NCBI RefSeq assembly: GCF_000354175.2
Contig: NC_022349.1
Span: 960,001 to 992,000 of the forward strand
Direction of reading: 5' to 3'
Origin: Vibrio alginolyticus NBRC 15630 = ATCC 17749
GTDB lineage: Bacteria; Pseudomonadota; Gammaproteobacteria; Enterobacterales; Vibrionaceae
DNA: 32,000 nucleotides
The translations under genes were made by a program, and so were the position numbers. This document shows positions 8,991 to 30,811 of the stretch, one piece after another; the stretch's first letter is position 1, and each line of letters starts with the position of its first letter. A model generated the notes under the pieces. That model saw nothing but the letters and a program-made list of their open reading frames with translations. It did no database searches and was not told where the DNA came from.

Positions 8991-9239
8991 ATGACCACTA
9001 GAATTTTAGCCGATGTTGCTGCAAGCATTACTGAGTTGAAAGCTAACCCTATGAAAGTTGCAACTAGTGCTTACGGCGAACCTGTTGCTGTATTAAACCG
9101 AAATGAACCAGCATTTTATTGCGTGCCTGCCGAAGCGTACGAAATGATGATGGACAGACTCGAAGATCTGGAACTACTAGCTATCGCTAAAGAGCGTGAA
9201 TCTGAAGAGAGCATTTCGGTAAATATTGATGACCTATAA
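8991..9239 (+). CDS. type II antitoxin, Phd/YefM (StbD/RelB-like)
   Basis: 82 aa. ILADVAASITELKANPMKV...EPVAVLNRNEPAFYCVPAEAYE. Inverted relative to the cassette array. Overlaps the toxin start. Confidence 0.85.
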   Translation: MTTRILADVAASITELKANPMKVATSAYGEPVAVLNRNEPAFYCVPAEAYEMMMDRLEDLELLAIAKERESEESISVNIDDL

Positions 9240-9519
9240 ACTCGACTTTAAAAAGAGTGCACTCAAAGAGTGGAAAAAGCTTGGCTCTACTCTGCAACAA
9301 CAATTTAAGAAAAAGCTAATCGAGCGCTTAGATAACCCACATGTTCCGGCTTCAAAGCTTTCTGGAGCTGACAACATGTATAAAATTAAGTTGCGTCAAT
9401 CGGGCTACCGTCTCGTCTACAAAGTTGAAGACGATGTCATCATTGTAACCGTCTTAGCAGTTGGAAAACGCGAACGTAGCGATGTTTACCGTAAAGCCAT
9501 GAAAAGGTTAGATGATTGA
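9229..9519 (+). CDS. type II toxin, RelE/StbE family
   Basis: ORF track starts at TTG 9226. ATG 9229 gives MTYKLDFKKSALKEWKKL...YRLVYKVEDDVIIVTVLAVGKRERSDVY, the RelE/StbE pattern. It overlaps the antitoxin by 11 nt. Confidence 0.85.
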   Translation: MTYKLDFKKSALKEWKKLGSTLQQQFKKKLIERLDNPHVPASKLSGADNMYKIKLRQSGYRLVYKVEDDVIIVTVLAVGKRERSDVYRKAMKRLDD

Positions 9520-9559
9520 TTGCGGTTGGTGTACCCCACAAAAAGTAGACAGTACATAA

Positions 9560-10342
9560 CTACATACTTTCGTACTCAACTGGGCTGACCTGCCCCAACG
9601 CTGAGTGTCTTCTTCTGCGATTGTAAAATACCTCGATGTATTCGAAGATGCCCATTCGGGCTTCTTCGACAGTTTGATAGTCTTCTGCGTATATCAGTTC
9701 GACTTTCAGTCGACTGTAGAACGACTCCATCACCGCATTATCCCAGCAGTTACCCTGCCGACTCATGCTCGGTACACCTCCATGCTTACGCATGAAGTCT
9801 TGATATTTGTAGGCTCTGTATTGTACACCACGGTCTGAGTGGATAATGACGCCCTTAGGCGGCTTACGTGACTCAAACGCCATTTTTAGAGCGTTAGTGA
9901 TTAGCTCGACGGTCATCGTTGTCCCAAGCGACCAACCCACAATGCGTCTTGAATGCAAGTCCATCACTGTCGCTAAGAAGAGCCAACGGCTCTTCACCCA
10001 GATATACGTAATGTCCGTAACCCATTTCTGATTTGGCGTCTCAGACTCAAAGTCTCTACGCAGTAAATTGTCGGCAACATTCGTCATAGCAGCCACATAA
10101 TTCACGCAGCAGGCATAGCCTGCTTCGTTGAGCTCTTCGGCTATTCGCACTGAGCCGTAACGTGCCCGATATTGGGCAAAGGTACACATGACGAGCTGTT
10201 CAAAGCGCTCTCGCCGCTTTGAACGCTCACTCGGCGTATGATGGCACCACTTATAATAGCCGCCCCGACTCACTTCTAAGGTGCGGCACATTAAGCTAAT
10301 GGAATACTCACCGACATAGCTTTCGATGAACTCGTACTTCAC
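9560..10342 (-). CDS. IS3-family transposase OrfB (DDE/rve core), internally deleted; expressed as an OrfAB fusion by -1 frameshift
   Basis: DDE-type motifs WVTDITYI, IIHSDRGVQY, NAVMESFYSRLKVE. It lacks 23 aa (DIMKEKGIRARNGKGFKYSKDVA region) that are present in copy 2. Confidence 0.85.
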   Translation of the reverse strand: MKYEFIESYVGEYSISLMCRTLEVSRGGYYKWCHHTPSERSKRRERFEQLVMCTFAQYRARYGSVRIAEELNEAGYACCVNYVAAMTNVADNLLRRDFESETPNQKWVTDITYIWVKSRWLFLATVMDLHSRRIVGWSLGTTMTVELITNALKMAFESRKPPKGVIIHSDRGVQYRAYKYQDFMRKHGGVPSMSRQGNCWDNAVMESFYSRLKVELIYAEDYQTVEEARMGIFEYIEVFYNRRRRHSALGQVSPVEYESM

Positions 10343-10647
10343 TCTTGCTGCTTCGCGAAGTACGCCGAGACCTTTTTTAGGAATTCCATTTCATCTTTGA
10401 GTCGCTTGTTCTCGCGCCTTAGCGCCCGAAGCTCTTCGGACTCTTTCTTCGAGTAATCGACACCGTCTAAGGTGTTAAACTGTTTATCAGATAGGCGTGT
10501 GAACTGGCGCTTCCAGTTTCGGATCTGCTGGGCACTGATGCCCAGCTCCTTGGCAACGGAAACGGCTGTTCGGCCAGGAAGACTGGCCAAGCGGACTGCT
10601 TCTTTGCGGAACTCTTCGGTGTACGCTGGATTACGATGTTTAGCCAT
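10339..10647 (-). CDS. IS3-family transposase OrfA (HTH plus leucine zipper)
   Basis: 102 aa. HTH is VSVAKELGISAQQIRNWKRQF. Coiled coil is LRALRRENKRLKDEMEFLKK. The protein is identical in all three copies. Confidence 0.9.
   Translation of the reverse strand: MAKHRNPAYTEEFRKEAVRLASLPGRTAVSVAKELGISAQQIRNWKRQFTRLSDKQFNTLDGVDYSKKESEELRALRRENKRLKDEMEFLKKVSAYFAKQQE
10372..10378 (-). promoter_or_regulatory. programmed -1 ribosomal frameshift heptamer A AAA AAG (IS copy 1)
   Basis: - strand reads CTA AAA AAG GTC in the orfA frame. A -1 slip continues into the orfB frame (KKGLGVLREAARVKYEF...). This is the classic IS3-family arrangement. Confidence 0.8.
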
Positions 10648-10715
10648 AAATCACCTCTCAATTAGACCCTAGATCTAACTTAGTAAAGTGTCTACTAAAC
10701 GTGGGGTACTCGGCG

Positions 10716-10841
10716 GTATAACGCCCTGTTAAGGGGTGAGCAACGCAATACCAATGCCGCCGCATACCACCTTAATCACTTAAACCAACGCATAGTGAAG
10801 ATGCCACGCGTTGCGAATCCCTCTTGAACAGTTTGTTAACT
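10716..10841 (-). repeat. attC_15 (VCR-like, 126 bp)
   Basis: gtataac...gttaact. Identical to attC_39 from its second base onward. Confidence 0.9.
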
Positions 10842-11182
10842 GAGCGCCTTTCAGTTTTCGCCGATTTTTCAGCCACTTTCGCCAAAGCTCGTTTTGCTAA
10901 TTAATGATTAGCAAAGCTAACTCAAATATGTGTTTAACAAAAAAATTACCGTTGATCTTTAGTTTGAAATGCGTCTCACAACACCATACTTCGGCGATGT
11001 AAGTGCGCCGAACTAATCGCGAACGCCTTATATTATTAGAAGGCTTTATGCCGCCTTTCACATCAGTAAGCTTAAGTACCAAACTGAAATTAGTCGCATT
11101 ACCTCAGCTAAGGAAACCGACCGAACACGCTAAACCTCCGAACCTAGAAACCGTATCAATGTGCTTTCGTATTTTCTGTGCC
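10842..11182. other. ORF-less integron cassette, family C copy 1
   Basis: 341 bp. It holds only two overlapping 61-aa ORFs without RBS. Contains the perfect hairpin tttgctaat-taatg-attagcaaa (10893-10915). Identical to 30345..30685. Confidence 0.7.
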
Positions 11183-11308
11183 AGTTAACGCCCTGTTAAG
11201 GTGTGAGCAACACAATACCGATGCTCCCGCATGCCACCTTAAACACTAGACGCAACGCATAGCAAAAATGCCACGCGTTGCGAATCACTCTTAAACAGTT
11301 TGTTATGT
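11183..11308 (-). repeat. attC_16 (VCR-like, 126 bp)
   Basis: agttaac...gttatgt. Confidence 0.9.
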
Positions 11309-11734
11309 GTTTGCGTGCTGAAGTTGAAAATGCAACTGAGACATTAGTGATTGATATACTTTCATAGTAAATACTTGCAAATTTTCCATACAAAACTCAC
11401 CACCAATAATTGGATGCAGATTCCAACCTAAGCATTCGTCTTGTTTTGGTTGTAGCCCGTGTTCGAGCGCCAAGTCATACCAACTAGTTAAAAAGACATT
11501 ATCACACCAATCTTGTGATTTATTCATTTTATTGTACTCATGAAAGTCCGAAGCAATTGTTTCATAGGTACCATCTAAAACCGATAACAATGAAATTGAG
11601 CCATCCACTTCACCAAATAGCCAGTCACCCATGATGGTTAGATACAAAGGTTTCCCTGTAGGATTAAGCAACCATTTCCACTGAGGTAACAAGGTATCTA
11701 TTTCTACGTCCGAGACTTCCCAAATAAACTGCAT
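11303..11734 (-). CDS. DUF1851 / Tdi1-like (T6SS immunity-type) protein, tentative
   Basis: ORF track gives 11303..11803 and runs into the IS end. I trimmed the start to ATG 11732-11734 (MQFIWEVSDVEID). The pattern WKWLLNPTGKPLYLTIMGDWLFGEVDGSISLL recalls DUF1851. This is from memory and not searched. Confidence 0.55.
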   Translation of the reverse strand: MQFIWEVSDVEIDTLLPQWKWLLNPTGKPLYLTIMGDWLFGEVDGSISLLSVLDGTYETIASDFHEYNKMNKSQDWCDNVFLTSWYDLALEHGLQPKQDECLGWNLHPIIGGEFCMENLQVFTMKVYQSLMSQLHFQLQHANT

Positions 11735-11805
11735 TTTTATCTTTCTCACTCTGTTTAGAAACCCATTGACACTGGTGTACCCCACAAAAAGTAGACAGTA
11801 CATAA

Positions 11806-12657
11806 CTACATACTTTCGTACTCAACTGGGCTGACGTGCCCCAACGCTGAGTGTCTTCTTCTGCGATTGTAAAATACCTCGATGTATTCGAAGATGCCCA
11901 TTCGGGCTTCTTCGAGGGTTTGGTAGTCTTCTGCGTATATCAGTTCGACTTTCAGTCGACTGTAGAACGACTCCATCACCGCATTATCCCAACAGTTGCC
12001 CTGCCGACTCATGCTCGGTACACCTCCATGCTTGCGCATGAAGTCTTGATATTTATATGCTCTGTATTGTACACCACGGTCCGAGTGGATAATGACGCCT
12101 TTAGGCGACTTACGTGACTCAAACGCCATTTTTAGGGCATTGGTGATGAGCTCGACGGTCATCGTTGTCCCTAACGACCAACCCACAATACGCCTTGAAT
12201 GCAAGTCCATCACTGTCGCTAAGAAGAGCCAACGGCTCTTCACCCAGATATACGTGATGTCCGTAACCCACTTCTGATTTGGCGTCTCAGACTCAAAGTC
12301 TCTTCGCAGTAAATTGTCGGCAACATTCGTCATAGCAGCCACATCCTTGCTGTATTTAAACCCTTTACCATTACGTGCCCTGATACCTTTTTCCTTCATG
12401 ATATCAGCCACATAATTCACGCAGCAGGCATAGCCTGCTTCGTTGAGCTCTTCGGCTATTCGCACTGAGCCGTAACGTGCCCGATATTGGGAAAAGGTAC
12501 ACATGACGAGCTGTTCAAAGCGCTCTCGCCGCTTTGAACGCTCACTCGGCGTATGATGGCACCACTTATAATAGCCGCCCCGACTCACTTCTAAGGTGCG
12601 GCACATTAAGCTAATGGAATACTCACCGACATAGCTTTCGATGAACTCGTACTTCAC
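11806..12657 (-). CDS. IS3-family transposase OrfB (full length, DDE/rve)
   Basis: 283 aa with the same DDE motifs. Includes the segment DIMKEKGIRARNGKGFKYSKDV that is absent from copies 1 and 3. Confidence 0.9.
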   Translation of the reverse strand: MKYEFIESYVGEYSISLMCRTLEVSRGGYYKWCHHTPSERSKRRERFEQLVMCTFSQYRARYGSVRIAEELNEAGYACCVNYVADIMKEKGIRARNGKGFKYSKDVAAMTNVADNLLRRDFESETPNQKWVTDITYIWVKSRWLFLATVMDLHSRRIVGWSLGTTMTVELITNALKMAFESRKSPKGVIIHSDRGVQYRAYKYQDFMRKHGGVPSMSRQGNCWDNAVMESFYSRLKVELIYAEDYQTLEEARMGIFEYIEVFYNRRRRHSALGHVSPVEYESM

Positions 12658-12962
12658 TCTTGCTGCTTCGCGAAGTACGCCGAGACCTTTTTTAGGAATT
12701 CCATTTCATCTTTGAGTCGCTTGTTCTCGCGCCTTAGCGCCCGAAGCTCTTCGGACTCTTTCTTCGAGTAATCGACACCGTCTAAGGTGTTAAACTGTTT
12801 ATCAGATAGGCGTGTGAACTGGCGCTTCCAGTTTCGGATCTGCTGGGCACTGATGCCCAGCTCCTTGGCAACGGAAACGGCTGTTCGGCCAGGAAGACTG
12901 GCCAAGCGGACTGCTTCTTTGCGGAACTCTTCGGTGTACGCTGGATTACGATGTTTAGCCAT
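12654..12962 (-). CDS. IS3-family transposase OrfA
   Basis: 102 aa, identical to copy 1 OrfA. Confidence 0.9.
   Translation of the reverse strand: MAKHRNPAYTEEFRKEAVRLASLPGRTAVSVAKELGISAQQIRNWKRQFTRLSDKQFNTLDGVDYSKKESEELRALRRENKRLKDEMEFLKKVSAYFAKQQE
12687..12693 (-). promoter_or_regulatory. programmed -1 frameshift heptamer A AAA AAG (IS copy 2)
   Basis: Same context as copy 1. Confidence 0.8.
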
Positions 12963-13030
12963 AAATCACCTCTCAATTAGACCCTAGATCTAACTTAGTA
13001 AAGTGTCTACTAAACGTGGGGTACTCGGGA

Positions 13031-13157
13031 ACATAACGCCGCGTTAAGTAGTGAGCAACATTTCCACCTAACCTAAACCATTGTGCCGTAAACACTAAAA
13101 TAGAAGCAAACCGAAAATGCCGAGCGTTGCGAATCTGTCTTAAACGCTTTGTTATGT
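13031..13157 (-). repeat. attC_17 (attC of the qnrVC cassette, 127 bp)
   Basis: acataac...gttatgt. Variant inner box gccgagcgttgcgaat. Confidence 0.9.
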
Positions 13158-13176
13158 GCGTAGCCGAATCTTGCGC

Positions 13177-13833
13177 TTAGTCAGGAACAATGATTACCCC
13201 TAATTGCTCCAGTAACTGCTCCTGTTGCCACGAGCATATTTTTACACCTGTTAGATCAATCTTTCGAGGGTCTAAACCATAAAGCTCTGAATGACTTAAA
13301 TCACAACCTTGTACTCTAAACTGTTCCCAGCAATCTTCCGAAAAAACGCCACGACTTAAATCTGACTCTTTAAATGAAGCGCCTCGAAGATTTGCACCAA
13401 TCCATCTATTTTCGAACAGGTCACATTTTTCAATAAGCTGCTGCTCAAAATTGGCATAGGATAAGTTACAACCTGTTATGTATGCAGAGCAAAAGTACAT
13501 TTTATTCGAAACCTGATTTACAAAACTAACTTGGCTAAAATTTGCTCCTTTAAGATCACAATCTCTCAGTTCAATACCAAAGCAATTTGCCCCCTTAAAA
13601 TGGGACATTGAAAGCTGACAGTTTTTAAATGAAGCATCTCGAAGATCAGCATAAGAAAAATCGCACCCTTCCAGTGCCCCCTGCTCTATGAAAGTACAGT
13701 TAATGAACTGTGTATCTCGAAGGTTTGAGCGCGTAAAATTACAATGTATAAAAGTACAATTGCTAAAGATATGTTCTTGCAAGTCCTGATGTGAGAAGTT
13801 CACTTGATTATATAATTGCTTTGATTTTTCCAT
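13177..13833 (-). CDS. qnrVC: QnrVC-type pentapeptide-repeat quinolone-resistance protein (218 aa)
   Basis: ORF track gives 13177..13872. The start ATG 13831-13833 yields MEKSKQLYNQVNFSHQDLQEHIFSNCTFIHCNF... and ends ...QLGVIIVPD. I recognise this as the QnrVC family at its canonical 218-aa length. The sequence is tandem pentapeptide repeats throughout. RBS is GGAG. Confidence 0.9.
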   Translation of the reverse strand: MEKSKQLYNQVNFSHQDLQEHIFSNCTFIHCNFTRSNLRDTQFINCTFIEQGALEGCDFSYADLRDASFKNCQLSMSHFKGANCFGIELRDCDLKGANFSQVSFVNQVSNKMYFCSAYITGCNLSYANFEQQLIEKCDLFENRWIGANLRGASFKESDLSRGVFSEDCWEQFRVQGCDLSHSELYGLDPRKIDLTGVKICSWQQEQLLEQLGVIIVPD

Positions 13834-14078
13834 GCTGTAGCTCCAAAAAACATTTGATTTGAAGACTACCATTTACCTGAAAGTTCTCAACAAAAACAAA
13901 ACCAATAAAAACAGACACTTAAAAAGCCCCATTTTAGCCAAAATAAGGCACCAAAACGGCATTTTAAAGGGGGCTAATTCAAAACAACCGATGCGGCCAG
14001 CTAGAAAAAAGTTTTAGTGAATCTGGCGGGTTTTAGAGAAAGCACTGGTGTACCCCACAAAAAGTAGACAGTACATAA

Positions 14079-14861
14079 CTACATACTTTCGTACTCAACT
14101 GGGCTGACCTGCCCCAACGCTGAGTGTCTTCTTCTGCGATTGTAAAATACCTCGATGTATTCGAAGATGCCCATTCGGGCTTCTTCGACAGTTTGATAGT
14201 CTTCTGCGTATATCAGTTCGACTTTCAGTCGACTGTAGAACGACTCCATCACCGCATTATCCCAGCAGTTACCCTGCCGACTCATGCTCGGTACACCTCC
14301 ATGCTTACGCATGAAGTCTTGATATTTGTAGGCTCTGTATTGTACACCACGGTCTGAGTGGATAATGACGCCCTTAGGCGGCTTACGTGACTCAAACGCC
14401 ATTTTTAGAGCGTTAGTGATTAGCTCGACGGTCATCGTTGTCCCAAGCGACCAACCCACAATGCGTCTTGAATGCAAGTCCATCACTGTCGCTAAGAAGA
14501 GCCAACGGCTCTTCACCCAGATATACGTAATGTCCGTAACCCATTTCTGATTTGGCGTCTCAGACTCAAAGTCTCTACGCAGTAAATTGTCGGCAACATT
14601 CGTCATAGCAGCCACATAATTCACACAGCAGGCATAGCCTGCTTCGTTTAGCTCTTCTGCAATTCGCACAGAGCCGTAACGTGCCCGATATTGGGCAAAG
14701 GTACACATGACGAGCTGTTCAAAGCGCTCTCGCCGCTTTGAACGCTCACTCGGCGCATGATGACGCCACTTGTAGTAACCACCTCGACTCACTTCTAACG
14801 TACGGCACATTAAGCTAATCGAGTACTCGCCTGTATAGCTTTCAATGAACTCGTACTTCAC
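14079..14861 (-). CDS. IS3-family transposase OrfB (internally deleted variant)
   Basis: 260 aa with the same deletion junction NYVA|AMTNV as copy 1. Confidence 0.85.
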   Translation of the reverse strand: MKYEFIESYTGEYSISLMCRTLEVSRGGYYKWRHHAPSERSKRRERFEQLVMCTFAQYRARYGSVRIAEELNEAGYACCVNYVAAMTNVADNLLRRDFESETPNQKWVTDITYIWVKSRWLFLATVMDLHSRRIVGWSLGTTMTVELITNALKMAFESRKPPKGVIIHSDRGVQYRAYKYQDFMRKHGGVPSMSRQGNCWDNAVMESFYSRLKVELIYAEDYQTVEEARMGIFEYIEVFYNRRRRHSALGQVSPVEYESM

Positions 14862-15166
14862 TCTTGCTGCTTCGCGAAGTACGCCGAGACCTTTTTTAGG
14901 AATTCCATTTCATCTTTGAGCCGCTTGTTCTCGCGCCTTAGCGCTCGAAGCTCTTCAGACTCTTTCTTCGAATAATCGACACCGTCTAAAGTGTTAAACT
15001 GTTTATCAGATAGGCGTGTGAACTGGCGCTTCCAGTTCCGGATCTGCTGGGCACTGATGCCCAGCTCCTTAGCAACGGAGACGGCTGTTCGGCCAGGAAG
15101 ACTGGCCAAGCGAACTGCTTCTTTACGGAACTCTTCGGTGTACGCTGGATTACGATGTTTAGCCAT
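14858..15166 (-). CDS. IS3-family transposase OrfA
   Basis: 102 aa. The protein is identical to copies 1 and 2 despite nucleotide differences. Confidence 0.9.
   Translation of the reverse strand: MAKHRNPAYTEEFRKEAVRLASLPGRTAVSVAKELGISAQQIRNWKRQFTRLSDKQFNTLDGVDYSKKESEELRALRRENKRLKDEMEFLKKVSAYFAKQQE
14891..14897 (-). promoter_or_regulatory. programmed -1 frameshift heptamer A AAA AAG (IS copy 3)
   Basis: Same context as copy 1. Confidence 0.8.
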
Positions 15167-15234
15167 AAATCACCTCTCAATTAGACCCTAGATCTAACTT
15201 AGTAAAGTGTCTACTAAACGTGGGGTACTCGGGC

Positions 15235-15360
15235 ACATAACGCCCAATTAAGGTGTGAAGCACGCAATACCGAAGCCCCCGCATACCACCTTAATCACTA
15301 AATTCAACGCATAGCAAAAATGCCACGCGTTGCGAATCACTCTTGAACAGTTTATTATGT
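15235..15360 (-). repeat. attC_18 (VCR-like, 126 bp, R'' point-mutated)
   Basis: acataac...attatgt. R'' reads ACATAAT instead of ACATAAC (tttattatgt where other copies have tttgttatgt). Confidence 0.85.
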
Positions 15361-20434: not shown

Positions 20435-20560
20435 ACATAACGCCCTGTTAAGGGGTGAGCAACGCAATACAAAAGCCGCCGCATACCACCTTAACCACTA
20501 AACGCAACGCATATTGAAAATGCCACGCGTTGCGAATCCCTCTTGAACAGTTTGTTATGT
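20435..20560 (-). repeat. attC_26 (VCR-like, 126 bp)
   Basis: acataac...gttatgt. Identical to attC_36. Confidence 0.9.
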
Positions 20561-20568
20561 GCGAACTT

Positions 20569-20841
20569 CTAGCTTGTAGATGACTGCTCAGCAACACTAA
20601 CTTTAGGCTCTTTCTCTGGCGTCGACCATTTGATGATTGCTCTAAGGTTCATTGAGAAAAAGATGATATTTGCAATTATCATTGCCACACTGCCAGTAAG
20701 ATAACCAACTGCTACCCAACTAGTGTTACCGCACATCATTAAGATGAAACCGATTTTGTTCTTATTTCCAATTTGCCAAATTGCAAGAAACGTAAGTACC
20801 ATTGCAACCCAGTCGATTCCATAGTACTGAAAATATTCCAT
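20569..20841 (-). CDS. small 3-TM membrane protein (PnuC/SemiSWEET-sized), copy 1
   Basis: ORF track gives 20569..20856. I trimmed the start to ATG 20839-20841 (MEYFQYYGIDW) with GGAGGA upstream, giving 90 aa. Three TM helices and an acidic/Ser-rich tail. Confidence 0.65.
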   Translation of the reverse strand: MEYFQYYGIDWVAMVLTFLAIWQIGNKNKIGFILMMCGNTSWVAVGYLTGSVAMIIANIIFFSMNLRAIIKWSTPEKEPKVSVAEQSSTS

Positions 20842-20854
20842 TTTTCCTCCAAGC

Positions 20855-20980
20855 ACATAACGCCCGCTTAAGTGGTGAGCAACGCAATGCCGAAGCTACC
20901 GCATTCCACCTTAAACACTAAACGCAACGCATGGTAAAAATGCCACGCGTTGCGAATCCGTCTTGAAGCGTTTGTTATAT
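20855..20980 (-). repeat. attC_27 (VCR-like, 126 bp)
   Basis: acataac...gttatat. Confidence 0.9.
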
Positions 20981-28563: not shown

Positions 28564-28689
28564 ACATAACGCCCTGTTAAGGGGTGAGCAACGCAATACA
28601 AAAGCCGCCGCATACCACCTTAACCACTAAACGCAACGCATATTGAAAATGCCACGCGTTGCGAATCCCTCTTGAACAGTTTGTTATGT
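28564..28689 (-). repeat. attC_36 (VCR-like, 126 bp)
   Basis: acataac...gttatgt. Identical to attC_26. Confidence 0.9.
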
Positions 28690-28697
28690 GCGAACTT

Positions 28698-28970
28698 CTA
28701 GCTTGTAGATGACTGCTCAGCAACACTAACTTTAGGCTCTTTCTCTGGCGTCGACCATTTGATGATTGCTCTAAGGTTCATTGAGAAAAAGATGATATTT
28801 GCAATTATCATTGCCACACTGCCAGTAAGATAACCAACTGCTACCCAACTAGTGTTACCGCACATCATTAAGATGAAACCGATTTTGTTCTTATTTCCAA
28901 TTTGCCAAATTGCAAGAAACGTAAGTACCATTGCAACCCAGTCGATTCCATAGTACTGAAAATATTCCAT
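28698..28970 (-). CDS. small 3-TM membrane protein, copy 2 (identical to 20569..20841)
   Basis: ORF track gives 28698..29012 and runs into attC_37. I trimmed the start to the ATG at 28968-28970. The nucleotide sequence is identical to copy 1. Confidence 0.65.
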   Translation of the reverse strand: MEYFQYYGIDWVAMVLTFLAIWQIGNKNKIGFILMMCGNTSWVAVGYLTGSVAMIIANIIFFSMNLRAIIKWSTPEKEPKVSVAEQSSTS

Positions 28971-28983
28971 TTTTCCTCCAAGC

Positions 28984-29108
28984 ACATAACGCCCAATTAA
29001 GGTGTGAGGCACGCAATACGATGCCCCCGCATACCACCTTATTCACTTAAACCAACGCATAGTAAAAATGCCACGCGTGCCGAATCACTCTTAAATTGTT
29101 TGTTAGTT
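28984..29108 (-). repeat. attC_37 (VCR-like, 125 bp)
   Basis: acataac...gttagtt. Inner stem ggcacgc/gcgtgcc (compensatory). Confidence 0.9.
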
Positions 29109-30218: not shown

Positions 30219-30344
30219 TTATAACGCCCTGTTAAGGGGTGAGCAACGCAATACCAATGCCGCCGCATACCACCTTAATCACTTAAACCAACGCATAGTG
30301 AAGATGCCACGCGTTGCGAATCCCTCTTGAACAGTTTGTTAACT
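30219..30344 (-). repeat. attC_39 (VCR-like, 126 bp)
   Basis: ttataac...gttaact. Identical to attC_15 except for the first base. Confidence 0.9.
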
Positions 30345-30685
30345 GAGCGCCTTTCAGTTTTCGCCGATTTTTCAGCCACTTTCGCCAAAGCTCGTTTTGC
30401 TAATTAATGATTAGCAAAGCTAACTCAAATATGTGTTTAACAAAAAAATTACCGTTGATCTTTAGTTTGAAATGCGTCTCACAACACCATACTTCGGCGA
30501 TGTAAGTGCGCCGAACTAATCGCGAACGCCTTATATTATTAGAAGGCTTTATGCCGCCTTTCACATCAGTAAGCTTAAGTACCAAACTGAAATTAGTCGC
30601 ATTACCTCAGCTAAGGAAACCGACCGAACACGCTAAACCTCCGAACCTAGAAACCGTATCAATGTGCTTTCGTATTTTCTGTGCC
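30345..30685. other. ORF-less integron cassette, family C copy 2
   Basis: Identical to 10842..11182. Confidence 0.7.
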
Positions 30686-30811
30686 AGTTAACGCCCTGTT
30701 AAGGTGTGAGCAACGCAATACCGATGTTGCAGCAGACCACCTTAAACACTAAACGCAACGCATAGTAAAAATGCCACGCGTTGCGAATCACTCTTAAACA
30801 GATTGTTATAA
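30686..30811 (-). repeat. attC_40 (VCR-like, 126 bp)
   Basis: agttaac...gttataa. Confidence 0.9.

What the first reader, a model, noticed from the sequence alone, without database searches (positions are those of the whole stretch)
9523..15241. IS3-family element inserted three times in the identical register next to attC R': apparent attC-junction target specificity
Reading the minus strand, the junctions are G|TTAT[ACCG]-IS at attC_15, G|TTAT[GTTC]-IS at attC_17 and G|TTAT[GTGC]-IS at attC_18. The 4-bp target is therefore always nt 5-8 of the cassette just downstream of the recombination crossover, and all three copies have the same orientation as the cassettes. Copies 1 and 3 carry perfect 4-bp target duplications (CGGT 9523-9526/10714-10717; GCAC 14042-14045/15233-15236). 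They are independent transposition events into different cassettes: a RelBE-type TA cassette and the qnrVC cassette. Three out of three at a single-nucleotide register in 32 kb is very unlikely by chance. There is precedent for structure-targeting. IS3-family IS1397/ISKpn1 insert into REP/BIME palindromes, and IS1111-attC elements and group IIC-attC introns target attC. I do not know of an IS3-family member with an attC-junction preference.
Basis: partly seen in the sequence, partly recalled or inferred. Interest (0 to 1): 0.75.

Follow-up and report, generated by a model that had tools for sequence, protein, structure and literature searches.

The report
Insertion sequence that targets integron cassette boundaries
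A 1.26-kb IS3-family insertion sequence, and a whole clade of marine relatives, inserts almost only 4 bp past the sequence GGCGTTAT. That sequence is the conserved 3' end of integron attC sites, so the element piles up, always in one orientation, at gene-cassette boundaries.

Summary
The window is a Vibrio-type chromosomal integron with cassettes on the minus strand. It holds three co-oriented IS3-family copies, each at attC-...GGCGTTAT-N4|IS. Copies 1 and 3 have perfect 4-bp duplications, and an IS-free qnrVC cassette elsewhere proves the duplication for copy 3.

Of 69 distinct junctions of this IS from about 20 Vibrio species, 67 have exactly this register and orientation. Relatives with 52-66% transposase identity, from Thalassolituus, Marinobacterium, Motiliproteus, Pseudoalteromonas and metagenomes, do the same. 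In a target-blind metagenome scan, 67 of 80 left ends carry CGTTA at the register, against 3 of 34 control right ends.

The target is a sequence, not a hairpin. Several perfect-duplication insertions lie at bare GGCGTTAK outside any attC. Within attC sites, GTTAT is preferred over GTTAG (p=3e-10). attC sites are still far over-represented relative to the motif's genome-wide frequency, and this is unexplained.

The 7-bp R' core stays intact. One IS-loaded toxin-antitoxin cassette sits behind three unrelated attC sites, so the IS probably rides with cassettes.

The held full-text search found only IS1111-attC elements credited with targeting attC (group IIC-attC introns are known to me from memory). 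ISfinder could not be checked. I call it a new variant of a known kind.

The parts
9527..10713 (-). IS copy 1, 1187 bp: orfA 10339-10647, orfB 9560-10342 (260 aa, lacks 23 aa). The left inverted repeat (IRL), CCGAGTACCCCACGTTTAGTAGACAC, faces the attC site. The right inverted repeat (IRR), ..GTCTACTTTTTGTGGGGTACACCA, faces the toxin-antitoxin cassette.
9523..9526 (.). Target duplication of copy 1, right-hand copy (CGGT on the plus strand, ACCG on the minus strand).
10714..10717 (.). Target duplication of copy 1, attC-side copy (nucleotides 5-8 of the cassette).
10718..10725 (-). Target motif GGCGTTAT: attC spacer GGC plus the first five bases of R'. The core GTTATAC is left intact upstream of the IS.
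10718..10845 (-). VCR-like attC site whose R' end was hit by copy 1. The same attC and its cassette recur without an IS at 30220-30714.
11773..13028 (-). IS copy 2, full length 1256 bp: orfA 12654-12962 (102 aa), orfB 11806-12657 (283 aa).
12687..12693 (-). A-AAA-AAG slippery heptamer where orfA and orfB overlap (programmed -1 frameshift). NCBI holds a fused 380-aa protein for this IS (P0031).
12345..12413 (-). 69-bp segment, bounded by ATGTGGCTG direct repeats, that is missing from copies 1 and 3. It encodes part of the HTH_21 region of OrfB.
13029..13032 (.). attC-side 4 bp of copy 2 (GTTC on the minus strand). It does not match the other flank, 11769-11772 (GTGT).
13033..13040 (-). Target motif GGCGTTAT for copy 2.
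14046..15232 (-). IS copy 3, 1187 bp: orfA 14858-15166, orfB 14079-14861 (260 aa).
14042..14045 (.). Target duplication of copy 3 on the qnrVC side (GCAC on the plus strand, GTGC on the minus strand).
15233..15236 (.). Target duplication of copy 3 on the attC side. The IS-free qnrVC cassette in pVb1762 reads ..GGCGTTAT|GTGCTTTCTC with a single GTGC.
15237..15244 (-). Target motif GGCGTTAT for copy 3.
8991..9519 (+). Phd/YafN antitoxin plus RelE toxin, inverted inside the cassette that now begins with copy 1.
13177..13872 (-). qnrVC gene of the cassette that now begins with copy 3.
11303..11734 (-). 143-aa ORF of the cassette that now begins with copy 2. The same-sized ORF at the homologous place in L218 carries a PF08906 (T6SS_Tdi1_C) hit.

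Best explanation
This is an active IS3-family insertion sequence. It has orfA and orfB joined by a -1 frameshift, a DDE (rve) transposase and a 4-bp target duplication.

Its transposition complex selects targets by reading an asymmetric 8-bp sequence, 5'-GGCGTTAT-3', with T preferred over G at the last position. It joins the IS ends across the 4 bp immediately 3' of that sequence, always with the left inverted repeat (IRL) next to the motif.

That sequence is the unpaired spacer GGC plus the R' core GTTAT of Vibrio-type attC sites. It is nearly the only conserved primary sequence in an attC. Large chromosomal integrons therefore offer dozens to hundreds of co-oriented targets, and the IS accumulates at cassette 5' boundaries in cassette orientation.

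The 7-bp core GTTATNN and the whole attC stay upstream of the insertion. The IS thus becomes the first 1.26 kb of the next cassette. From there it can be carried along when the integron integrase moves that cassette.

Multiple direct copies then act as portable homology. Recombination between them scrambles the duplications and makes mosaic copies. Deletion of the cassettes lying between two copies is the expected outcome but was not observed directly.

Shown here: the anatomy, the register, the orientation, the duplication, the empty site, the sequence discrimination, and conservation across the clade.

Inferred: that the transposase itself reads the motif, that movement is by copy-out-paste-in through a circle, that the integrase moves loaded cassettes, and that recombination between copies explains the missing duplications.
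For: Family: OrfB scores 334 bits against NF033516 (cut-off 160), and the A6G slippery site lies in the orfA/orfB overlap.

Register: 67 of 69 distinct junctions are GCGTTA(T/G)-N4|IRL. The logo has 1.5-2.0 bits at each of positions -12 to -5 and 0.8 bits or less in N4.

Empty site: pVb1762 reads ..GGCGTTAT|GTGCTTTCTC, while the window reads GTTAT GTGC[IS]GTGC TTTCTC.

Sequence rather than structure: non-attC insertions at the same register with perfect duplications are L003 (CAAA), L061-65 (AAGC), L066 (GCAT) and L075 (CTTT). L072 has GTAC on its left flank, matched by the right flank on L069. L033 and L037 show the same left junction but no right end. The last motif base is T in 57 of 63 occupied attC-type sites and in 171 of 342 unoccupied ones (Fisher p=2.8e-10).

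Orientation: the window has 37 motifs on the minus strand and none on the plus strand.

Clade-wide: relatives of 52-66% OrfB identity have the same target. In the target-blind metagenome scan, 67 of 80 IRL-type ends carry CGTTA at the register, against 3 of 34 TG-type ends (p=2.4e-14).

Riding with cassettes: the identical unit TTAT-ACCG-IS-ACCG-toxin-antitoxin cassette lies behind three unrelated attC sites, two of them in one genome.

Recombination: copy 1 matches copy 2 at 614 of 615 positions in the 5' part and matches copy 3 at 572 of 572 in the 3' part, while the other pairs are about 95% identical. Of 35 complete copies, 21 lack a matching duplication.
Against: The 8-mer alone does not explain the size of the attC bias. 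In 200 kb of V. campbellii DNA, non-attC GGCGTTAT occurs about 20 times per Mb, or roughly 100 per genome. That is similar to the number of GTTAT-type attC sites, yet only 3 of 68 Vibrio sites are outside attC. Either something more about attC is sensed, such as flanking sequence, folding or replication context, or insertions elsewhere are removed by selection.

No transposition was observed. No IRR-N-IRL circle or tandem junction was found in the held DNA.

The IRL terminus is CC, not the TG usual for the family, so the chemistry at that end is assumed rather than known.

The three attC contexts of the loaded toxin-antitoxin cassette could also be independent hits on the same hot spot.

Metagenome contigs that cross a 1.25-kb repeat may be chimeric.
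Confidence: 0.85

Rival explanations
1. The IS recognises the attC site as such: its folded hairpin, or the site bound by the integron integrase. On this view the GGCGTTAT motif is only a marker of attC.
For: About 95% of Vibrio junctions and roughly 55-70% of relatives' junctions are in attC-like contexts. That is far more than the motif's genome-wide frequency predicts. IS1111-attC elements are known to target attC sites, which can fold. ISAjo2-type elements sit 5 bp from a tyrosine-recombinase binding site (abstract of PMC10132070).
Against: At least seven non-attC sites are hit at the identical register, most with perfect duplications. They share only the 8-mer with attC and nothing further upstream. 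There is strong T over G discrimination at one base among otherwise equivalent attC sites. Integrase recognition of attC is described as structure-based rather than sequence-based (my own knowledge of MacDonald et al. 2006, a paper cited in PMC11023631).
Confidence: 0.1
2. Insertion is random or only weakly biased, and selection leaves only harmless copies in the non-coding leaders of silent cassettes.
For: Most integron cassettes are unexpressed, so insertions there are probably neutral (PMC11023631).
Against: Selection cannot produce a single-nucleotide register and a single orientation in 67 of 69 junctions, because any position in the leader would be equally harmless. Non-attC insertions, including one inside a ccm operon (L072) and one inside another IS (L003), still show the motif.
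Confidence: 0.02
3. The three window copies come from duplication of one IS-attC junction, or the IS was captured as or within a cassette by the integrase rather than by transposition.
For: Cassettes are duplicated in this window (10717-11211 = 30220-30714). An IS-loaded cassette does recur behind different attC sites.
Against: The three copies have different N4, different downstream cassettes and different upstream attC sequences. The 4-bp duplications and the empty site are the signature of a DDE transposase and lie 4-8 bp away from the G|TT crossover. Integrase-mediated insertion makes no duplication.
Confidence: 0.02

Closest known systems
[quoted passage not shown]
   Same: Insertion sequences found at one fixed position and orientation in integron attC sites, so they accumulate in cassette arrays.
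   Different: They belong to a different family. Their transposase is of the DEDD type, their target is chosen by a seeker RNA (PMC11187229), and they lack canonical terminal repeats and a target duplication (my knowledge). Here the element has an IS3-family DDE transposase, a 4-bp duplication, and a target just outside the R' core.
Group IIC-attC introns
   Same: Mobile elements specialised on attC sites in one orientation (my knowledge; not tested here).
   Different: They are retroelements that recognise the target through RNA. No transposase or duplication is involved.
IS1397 / ISKpn1 (IS3 family, target REP/BIME palindromes)
   Same: IS3-family elements with a strict preference for a short repeated host sequence (my knowledge). 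They are the precedent that this family can evolve sequence-specific targeting.
   Different: Their target is a different repeat.
ISAjo2 / IS1202 family at dif and pdif sites (PMC10132070)
   Same: A DDE insertion sequence found in one orientation a fixed few bp (5 bp) from the binding site of a tyrosine recombinase, with a short target duplication. The geometry is very similar.
   Different: It is a different IS family and targets a different recombination site (XerC/D dif rather than IntI attC).
ISEc15 (closest element named by NCBI, 46% OrfB identity)
   Same: IS3 family with the same orfA/orfB layout and size.
   Different: It has canonical TG..CA ends. The one copy examined (L092) has no GCGTTAK-N4 target, so it lies outside the targeting clade.
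IS2 (IS3 family, asymmetric ends)
   Same: The left end lacks the canonical terminal dinucleotide while the right end keeps CA-3' (my knowledge of IS2). Here IRL starts with CC, CA, TC or AG, while IRR ends in CCA (or CTA in the V. cholerae-type copies), in every clade member.
   Different: IS2 makes a 5-bp duplication and has no attC preference. Whether the asymmetry is linked to targeting here is unknown.

Membership tests
IS3 family | Two overlapping ORFs (orfA with an HTH, orfB with a DDE/rve domain) joined by a programmed -1 frameshift | tested here: met
   orfA is 102 aa (PF01527) and orfB is 283 aa (PF13276, PF00665, PF13683, PF13333). The A6G heptamer lies in the overlap. OrfB scores 334 bits against NF033516, whose cut-off is 160.
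IS3 family | Imperfect terminal inverted repeats ending 5'-TG...CA-3' | tested here: inconclusive
   Inverted repeats of about 26 bp are present. IRR ends ..CCA, but IRL begins CC, not TG, in this IS and in all clade members.
IS3 family | Short (3-5 bp) target duplication | tested here: met
   A 4-bp duplication is present in 14 of 35 complete copies and was verified against an empty site.
IS3 family | Copy-out-paste-in transposition through a circle with abutted ends | not testable with these tools
   No IRR-N-IRL junction was found in the held DNA. Outward PCR would be needed.
attC-targeting mobile elements (functional class) | Most copies at one position and orientation within or next to attC | tested here: met
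   67 of 69 junctions are at R'+8, co-oriented with the cassettes. About 65 of 68 distinct sites are attC.
IS1111-attC group | DEDD transposase, subterminal repeats and no target duplication | tested here: not met
   The transposase has an rve (DDE) domain, the repeats are terminal, and there is a 4-bp duplication.
Integron gene cassette (is the IS itself a cassette?) | Bounded by the G|TT crossover on both sides and carrying its own attC | tested here: not met
   The IS is bounded by its own repeats and a duplication 4-8 bp from the crossover, and has no attC of its own. It lies inside the downstream cassette.
Sedentary chromosomal integron (context) | Long array of co-oriented cassettes separated by highly similar attC sites | tested here: met
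   The window has 30 copies of a 139-nt repeat and further attC types in 32 kb, all in one orientation. No intI lies in the window. One related locus (L008) holds a tyrosine recombinase next to the array.

The most novel reading that the evidence does not exclude
A large clade of IS3-family elements that, as far as I could find, has not been recognised is a dedicated integron hitch-hiker. Members share at least 52% OrfB identity and occur in Vibrionales, Oceanospirillales, Alteromonadales and many uncultured marine bacteria.

Its DDE transposase reads the one conserved primary-sequence element of attC, C-GTTA-K of R' with the GG of the spacer. It inserts 4 bp downstream, so attC stays intact and the IS becomes part of the next cassette.

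The IS then travels with cassettes moved by the integrase. It also seeds arrays with direct 1.26-kb repeats that allow integrase-independent deletion, duplication and exchange of blocks of cassettes.
Probability: 0.55. Interest if true: 0.8.

Novelty: new variant of a known kind. Interest (0 to 1): 0.7.

Why it matters
Integron arrays are treated as shaped by the integrase alone, with insertion sequences as incidental passengers. The only attC-targeting insertion sequences credited in the held literature are the RNA-guided IS1111 group; group IIC-attC introns I know from memory.

A classical DDE insertion sequence that reads the R' core would add a second, protein-based route by which mobile elements colonise integrons.

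It would also explain why IS3-family transposases are so common in cassette surveys: 23% of cassette-borne transposases in PMC11089894.

It would supply the repeats for the IS-mediated array rearrangements shown experimentally in V. cholerae (PMC11023631).

The system is experimentally tractable, because it is an 8-bp target with single-base discrimination. Here the IS sits directly upstream of a quinolone-resistance cassette (qnrVC), which bears on how such cassettes are expressed and mobilised.

Tried and rejected
1. Classifying flanks as attC by inverted-repeat score, duplex energy or minimum-free-energy closure of TAAC..GTTA. All of these missed many obvious Vibrio attC sites. A TAAC-anchored arm alignment worked better but still misses short attC sites, so the attC fraction for relatives is only a rough estimate.

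2. A guide-sequence idea, in which a motif in the IS is complementary or identical to the target. The GTTAG seen in the left untranslated region is part of a TATAGT promoter-like box and is not conserved in Thalassolituus. The resemblance between IRL GAGTTAC and the target GCGTTAT is weakest in the Vibrio IS, which has the strictest target. I dropped the idea.

3. Resemblance between the attC L' box and IRR around GGGGT. The non-attC targets lack it, so I dropped this too.

4. A search for abutted IRR-N2-6-IRL junctions in all held loci found none.

5. The viral contig scan only re-found one V. cincinnatiensis contig.

6. Literature: ten full-text searches and several look-ups. Rowe-Magnus 2003, Tetu & Holmes 2008 and Siguier 2014 are not held. 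The sequence-string search was useless. I could not name the IS because ISfinder is not available.

7. Whether the two 1261-bp IS3 copies of V. cholerae N16961 (PMC11023631) belong to this clade could not be checked.

Full report
**What is in the window**

The 32-kb window is a Vibrio-type sedentary chromosomal integron. One 139-nt repeat family has 30 copies and there are further attC types, all in one orientation. Read on the minus strand, each repeat runs from ..TAACAAACTGTTCAAGAGGG.. to ..CCCCTTAACAGGGCGTTAT. The cassettes are therefore on the minus strand and GTTAT is the R' core. The exact OrfB sequence is annotated in Vibrio alginolyticus, so that is the probable source.

**The element**

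Three copies of one element lie on the minus strand:
- Copy 1: 9527-10713
- Copy 2: 11773-13028
- Copy 3: 14046-15232

Copy 2 is the full-length form, 1256 bp. It has orfA (102 aa, HTH_Tnp_1) and orfB (283 aa, HTH_21 plus rve) overlapping at an A-AAA-AAG slippery site. OrfB scores 334 bits against NCBIfam's IS3-family model, whose cut-off is 160.

The inverted repeats are about 26 bp long. IRR ends ..GGGGTACACCA, but IRL begins CCGAG rather than TG.

Copies 1 and 3 are 1187 bp. They lack 69 bp between ATGTGGCTG direct repeats, which removes 23 aa of the HTH_21 region.

The copies are mosaics. Copy 1 equals copy 2 in the 5' part (614 of 615) and equals copy 3 in the 3' part (572 of 572). The other comparisons are about 95% identical.

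**Check of the observation**

The junctions are as reported:
- ..GGGCGTTAT ACCG|IS|ACCG
- ..GGCGTTAT GTTC|IS|GTGT
- ..GGGCGTTAT GTGC|IS|GTGC

The downstream flanks are unrelated cassettes: an inverted Phd/RelE toxin-antitoxin pair, a 143-aa ORF, and qnrVC. The upstream attC sites differ as much as any two attC sites do. Segmental duplication is therefore excluded.

An IS-free qnrVC cassette on V. alginolyticus plasmid pVb1762 reads ..GCGGCGTTAT|GTGCTTTCTCTAAAG. A P. aeruginosa plasmid copy likewise has a single GTGC. This is the empty site for copy 3, and it proves that GTGC was duplicated on insertion.

The window holds 37 GGCGTTA[T/G] motifs on the minus strand and none on the plus strand. 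Three insertions at about 41 such sites out of 64,000 position-and-orientation choices has p of about 3e-10.

**Other copies of the same IS**

The exact OrfA is on record in 1300 blocks of the assembly collection. I tabulated flanks from four sources:
- ten places in complete genomes
- records of the plasmid collection
- a scan of one genome per species using a 23-mer internal to IRL, which is blind to the target: 42 stretches from about 20 Vibrio species
- V. cholerae-type copies

Of 69 distinct junctions, 67 are GCGTTA(T/G)-N4|IRL. The other two are one V. cincinnatiensis site with N5. Every position from -12 to -5 (GGCGTTAT) carries 1.5-2.0 bits, and the four duplicated bases carry 0.8 bits or less.

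**Sequence or structure**

Three of the 68 distinct Vibrio sites are not attC:
- L003, which is the same site as L086, lies inside another element's transposase gene and has the duplication CAAA.
- L033 lies in an intergenic tail.
- L037 lies in ordinary DNA.

Each has GGCGTTAT at the same register and nothing else in common with attC.

Among attC-type sites in the held Vibrio loci, the eighth base is T in 57 of 63 occupied sites but in only 171 of 342 unoccupied ones (odds ratio 9.5, p=2.8e-10). The composition of N4 does not differ much.

The IS therefore reads bases, including one that separates otherwise equivalent attC sites.

The need for GGC before GTTA also explains the single orientation. 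The complement of the R'' end reads TTTGTTA, and the window has no motif on the plus strand.

**Relatives**

OrfB homologues fall into a tight Vibrio cluster (77% identity or more), followed by a gap to 60-67%. All the relatives examined show the same target:

| Source | OrfB identity | Sites |
|---|---|---|
| Thalassolituus oleivorans | 60% | one attC site (duplication CTTT); two non-attC sites (AAGC; GCAT at CTCGTTAG) |
| Metagenomic element (P0106) | 62% | one attC site; one site in a ccm operon (GTAC) |
| Marinobacterium stanieri | 64% | one attC site |
| Motiliproteus | 66% | two sites |
| Pseudoalteromonas sp. THAF3 | 52% | one attC site |

In all of them the IS starts 17 nt before a conserved AGTAGACAC, and IRL does not start with TG.

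ISEc15 is the closest element that NCBI names, at 46% identity. It has TG..CA ends and no such target in the copy examined.

**Target-blind metagenome scan**

I scanned metagenome contigs with TTACCCANNNNNAGTAGACAC, a pattern internal to the repeats. It gave 127 ends.
- Of the 80 distinct ends with an IRL-type terminus (CCGAG, CCAAG, CCGTG and similar) pooled from all held loci, nearly all of them from this scan, 67 have CGTTA at -10 to -6. Allowing one mismatch raises this to 71.
- Of the 34 ends with a TG terminus, which are the other side of the elements and serve as the internal control, only 3 do (p=2.4e-14).

By a TAAC-anchored arm-complementarity score, 31 of 57 relatives' sites look like attC, against 2 of 33 controls. 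About eight more are obvious attC sites by eye.

**What the motif does not explain**

In 200 kb of V. campbellii DNA away from the known IS copies, non-attC GGCGTTAT occurs 4 times. That is about 20 per Mb, or roughly 100 per genome, and matches the expectation from base composition. It is about as many as the GTTAT-type attC sites of a large array.

Yet only 3 of 68 Vibrio sites are outside attC. Either attC adds something that I could not identify, or insertions elsewhere are purged by selection. This remains open.

**Consequences for the integron**

The insertion point is after nucleotide 8 of the cassette. The 7-bp core GTTATNN and the whole attC therefore remain upstream, and the IS becomes the 5' end of the next cassette, co-oriented with it.

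The unit TTAT-ACCG-IS(deletion form)-ACCG-toxin-antitoxin cassette of copy 1 is found behind three quite different attC sites. Two of these are 37 kb apart in one genome. The breakpoint is where the integrase crossover lies. This fits transport or duplication of the loaded cassette by the integrase. Repeated hits on the same hot spot cannot be excluded.

Of 35 complete copies, 21 lack matching duplications. Together with the mosaic copies, this points to frequent recombination between direct IS copies. Such recombination would delete or exchange blocks of cassettes. Richard et al. 2024 showed experimentally that IS3 copies in the V. cholerae array recombine and invert it (PMC11023631). I could not check whether those copies belong to this clade.

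**Comparison with what is known**

The element is a member of the IS3 family. All tested features are met except the TG terminus of IRL.

It works like the IS1111-attC elements and the group IIC-attC introns, in that it specialises on attC. It is not related to either. It has a DDE transposase and makes a duplication, whereas IS1111 elements use a DEDD enzyme guided by a seeker RNA (PMC11187229).

Within the IS3 family, IS1397 and ISKpn1 are the precedent for repeat-specific targeting (my knowledge).

The geometry resembles ISAjo2-type elements, which sit 5 bp from the XerC side of dif sites (PMC10132070).

**Prior description**

Ten full-text searches found no report of an IS3-family element with an attC or GCGTTAT target. 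Integron papers from 2024-2025 cite only Tetu & Holmes 2008 and Post & Hall 2009 for attC-targeting insertion sequences. One of them reports that 23% of cassette-borne transposases are IS3-family, without comment on targeting.

ISfinder and several older papers were not available, so an existing note cannot be excluded.

**Verdict**

The finding is real and general, and is best described as sequence-specific targeting of the attC R' end by an IS3-family clade. It is a new variant of a known kind, with interest of about 0.7.

Noticed in passing
window 9527-10713 and 14046-15232 versus 12345-12413: Copies 1 and 3 share a 69-bp in-frame deletion in orfB between ATGTGGCTG repeats, which removes the HTH_21 hit. 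Both still have perfect target duplications. The deletion form's exact OrfB is on record on 11 contigs. Either it is mobilised in trans, or the deletion spread by gene conversion. The copies are clear mosaics.
   Followed up: partly
L218, L219-L222, L221/L223 (relatives of window 8991-10717): The IS-loaded toxin-antitoxin cassette of copy 1, with the same N4 (ACCG), the same IS variant and the same cassette, sits behind three unrelated attC sites. Two of these are in one genome.
   Followed up: partly
window 10717-11211 = 30220-30714; 20435-20865 = 28564-28994: Two cassette-plus-attC segments are duplicated at 100% identity within the window. The first starts exactly at the attC R' end that abuts copy 1, and its second copy has no IS.
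   Followed up: partly
window 11769-11772 / 13029-13032, and 21 of 35 complete copies elsewhere: Most complete copies lack matching 4-bp duplications. Some metagenome contigs (L067/L068, L069) join the left flank of one insertion site to the right flank of another. This could be recombination between copies or assembly chimeras.
   Followed up: partly
IRL of all clade members (window 10709-10713, 13024-13028, 15228-15232): The left terminus is CC, CA, TC or AG rather than the TG usual for the IS3 family, while the right terminus keeps ..CCA or ..CTA. In the metagenome set this asymmetry goes together with the target specificity.
   Followed up: partly
L003 3870-3940 and L086: The IS is inserted at GGCGTTAT-CAAA inside the 3' part of another element's rve gene. 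The same nested insertion occurs in two different genomes.
   Followed up: no
L215 (V. campbellii NZ_CP050465.1, 1.00-1.05 Mb): A small cluster of five attC-like sites lies far from the IS-bearing arrays, on a 2-Mb replicon that PLSDB lists as a plasmid.
   Followed up: no
L022 about 930-1010: Two attC R' ends lie only 42 nt apart (..GCGGCGTTATGCTCTAGGAGGTAATTTTGCTCACCCCTTAGCAGGGCGTTAT). This is either a tiny ORF-less cassette or a truncated attC.
   Followed up: no
window 13873-14045: The IS now separates the qnrVC cassette's 173-nt leader from everything upstream. IS-free versions of the same cassette sit on V. alginolyticus, P. aeruginosa and S. stutzeri plasmids.
   Followed up: partly
L035 / L044 (V. 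cincinnatiensis): This is the only exception to the register among the Vibrio copies. The spacing is 5 bp rather than 4 (GGCGTTAT-GTAAC|IS), and the same site occurs in two strains.
   Followed up: no
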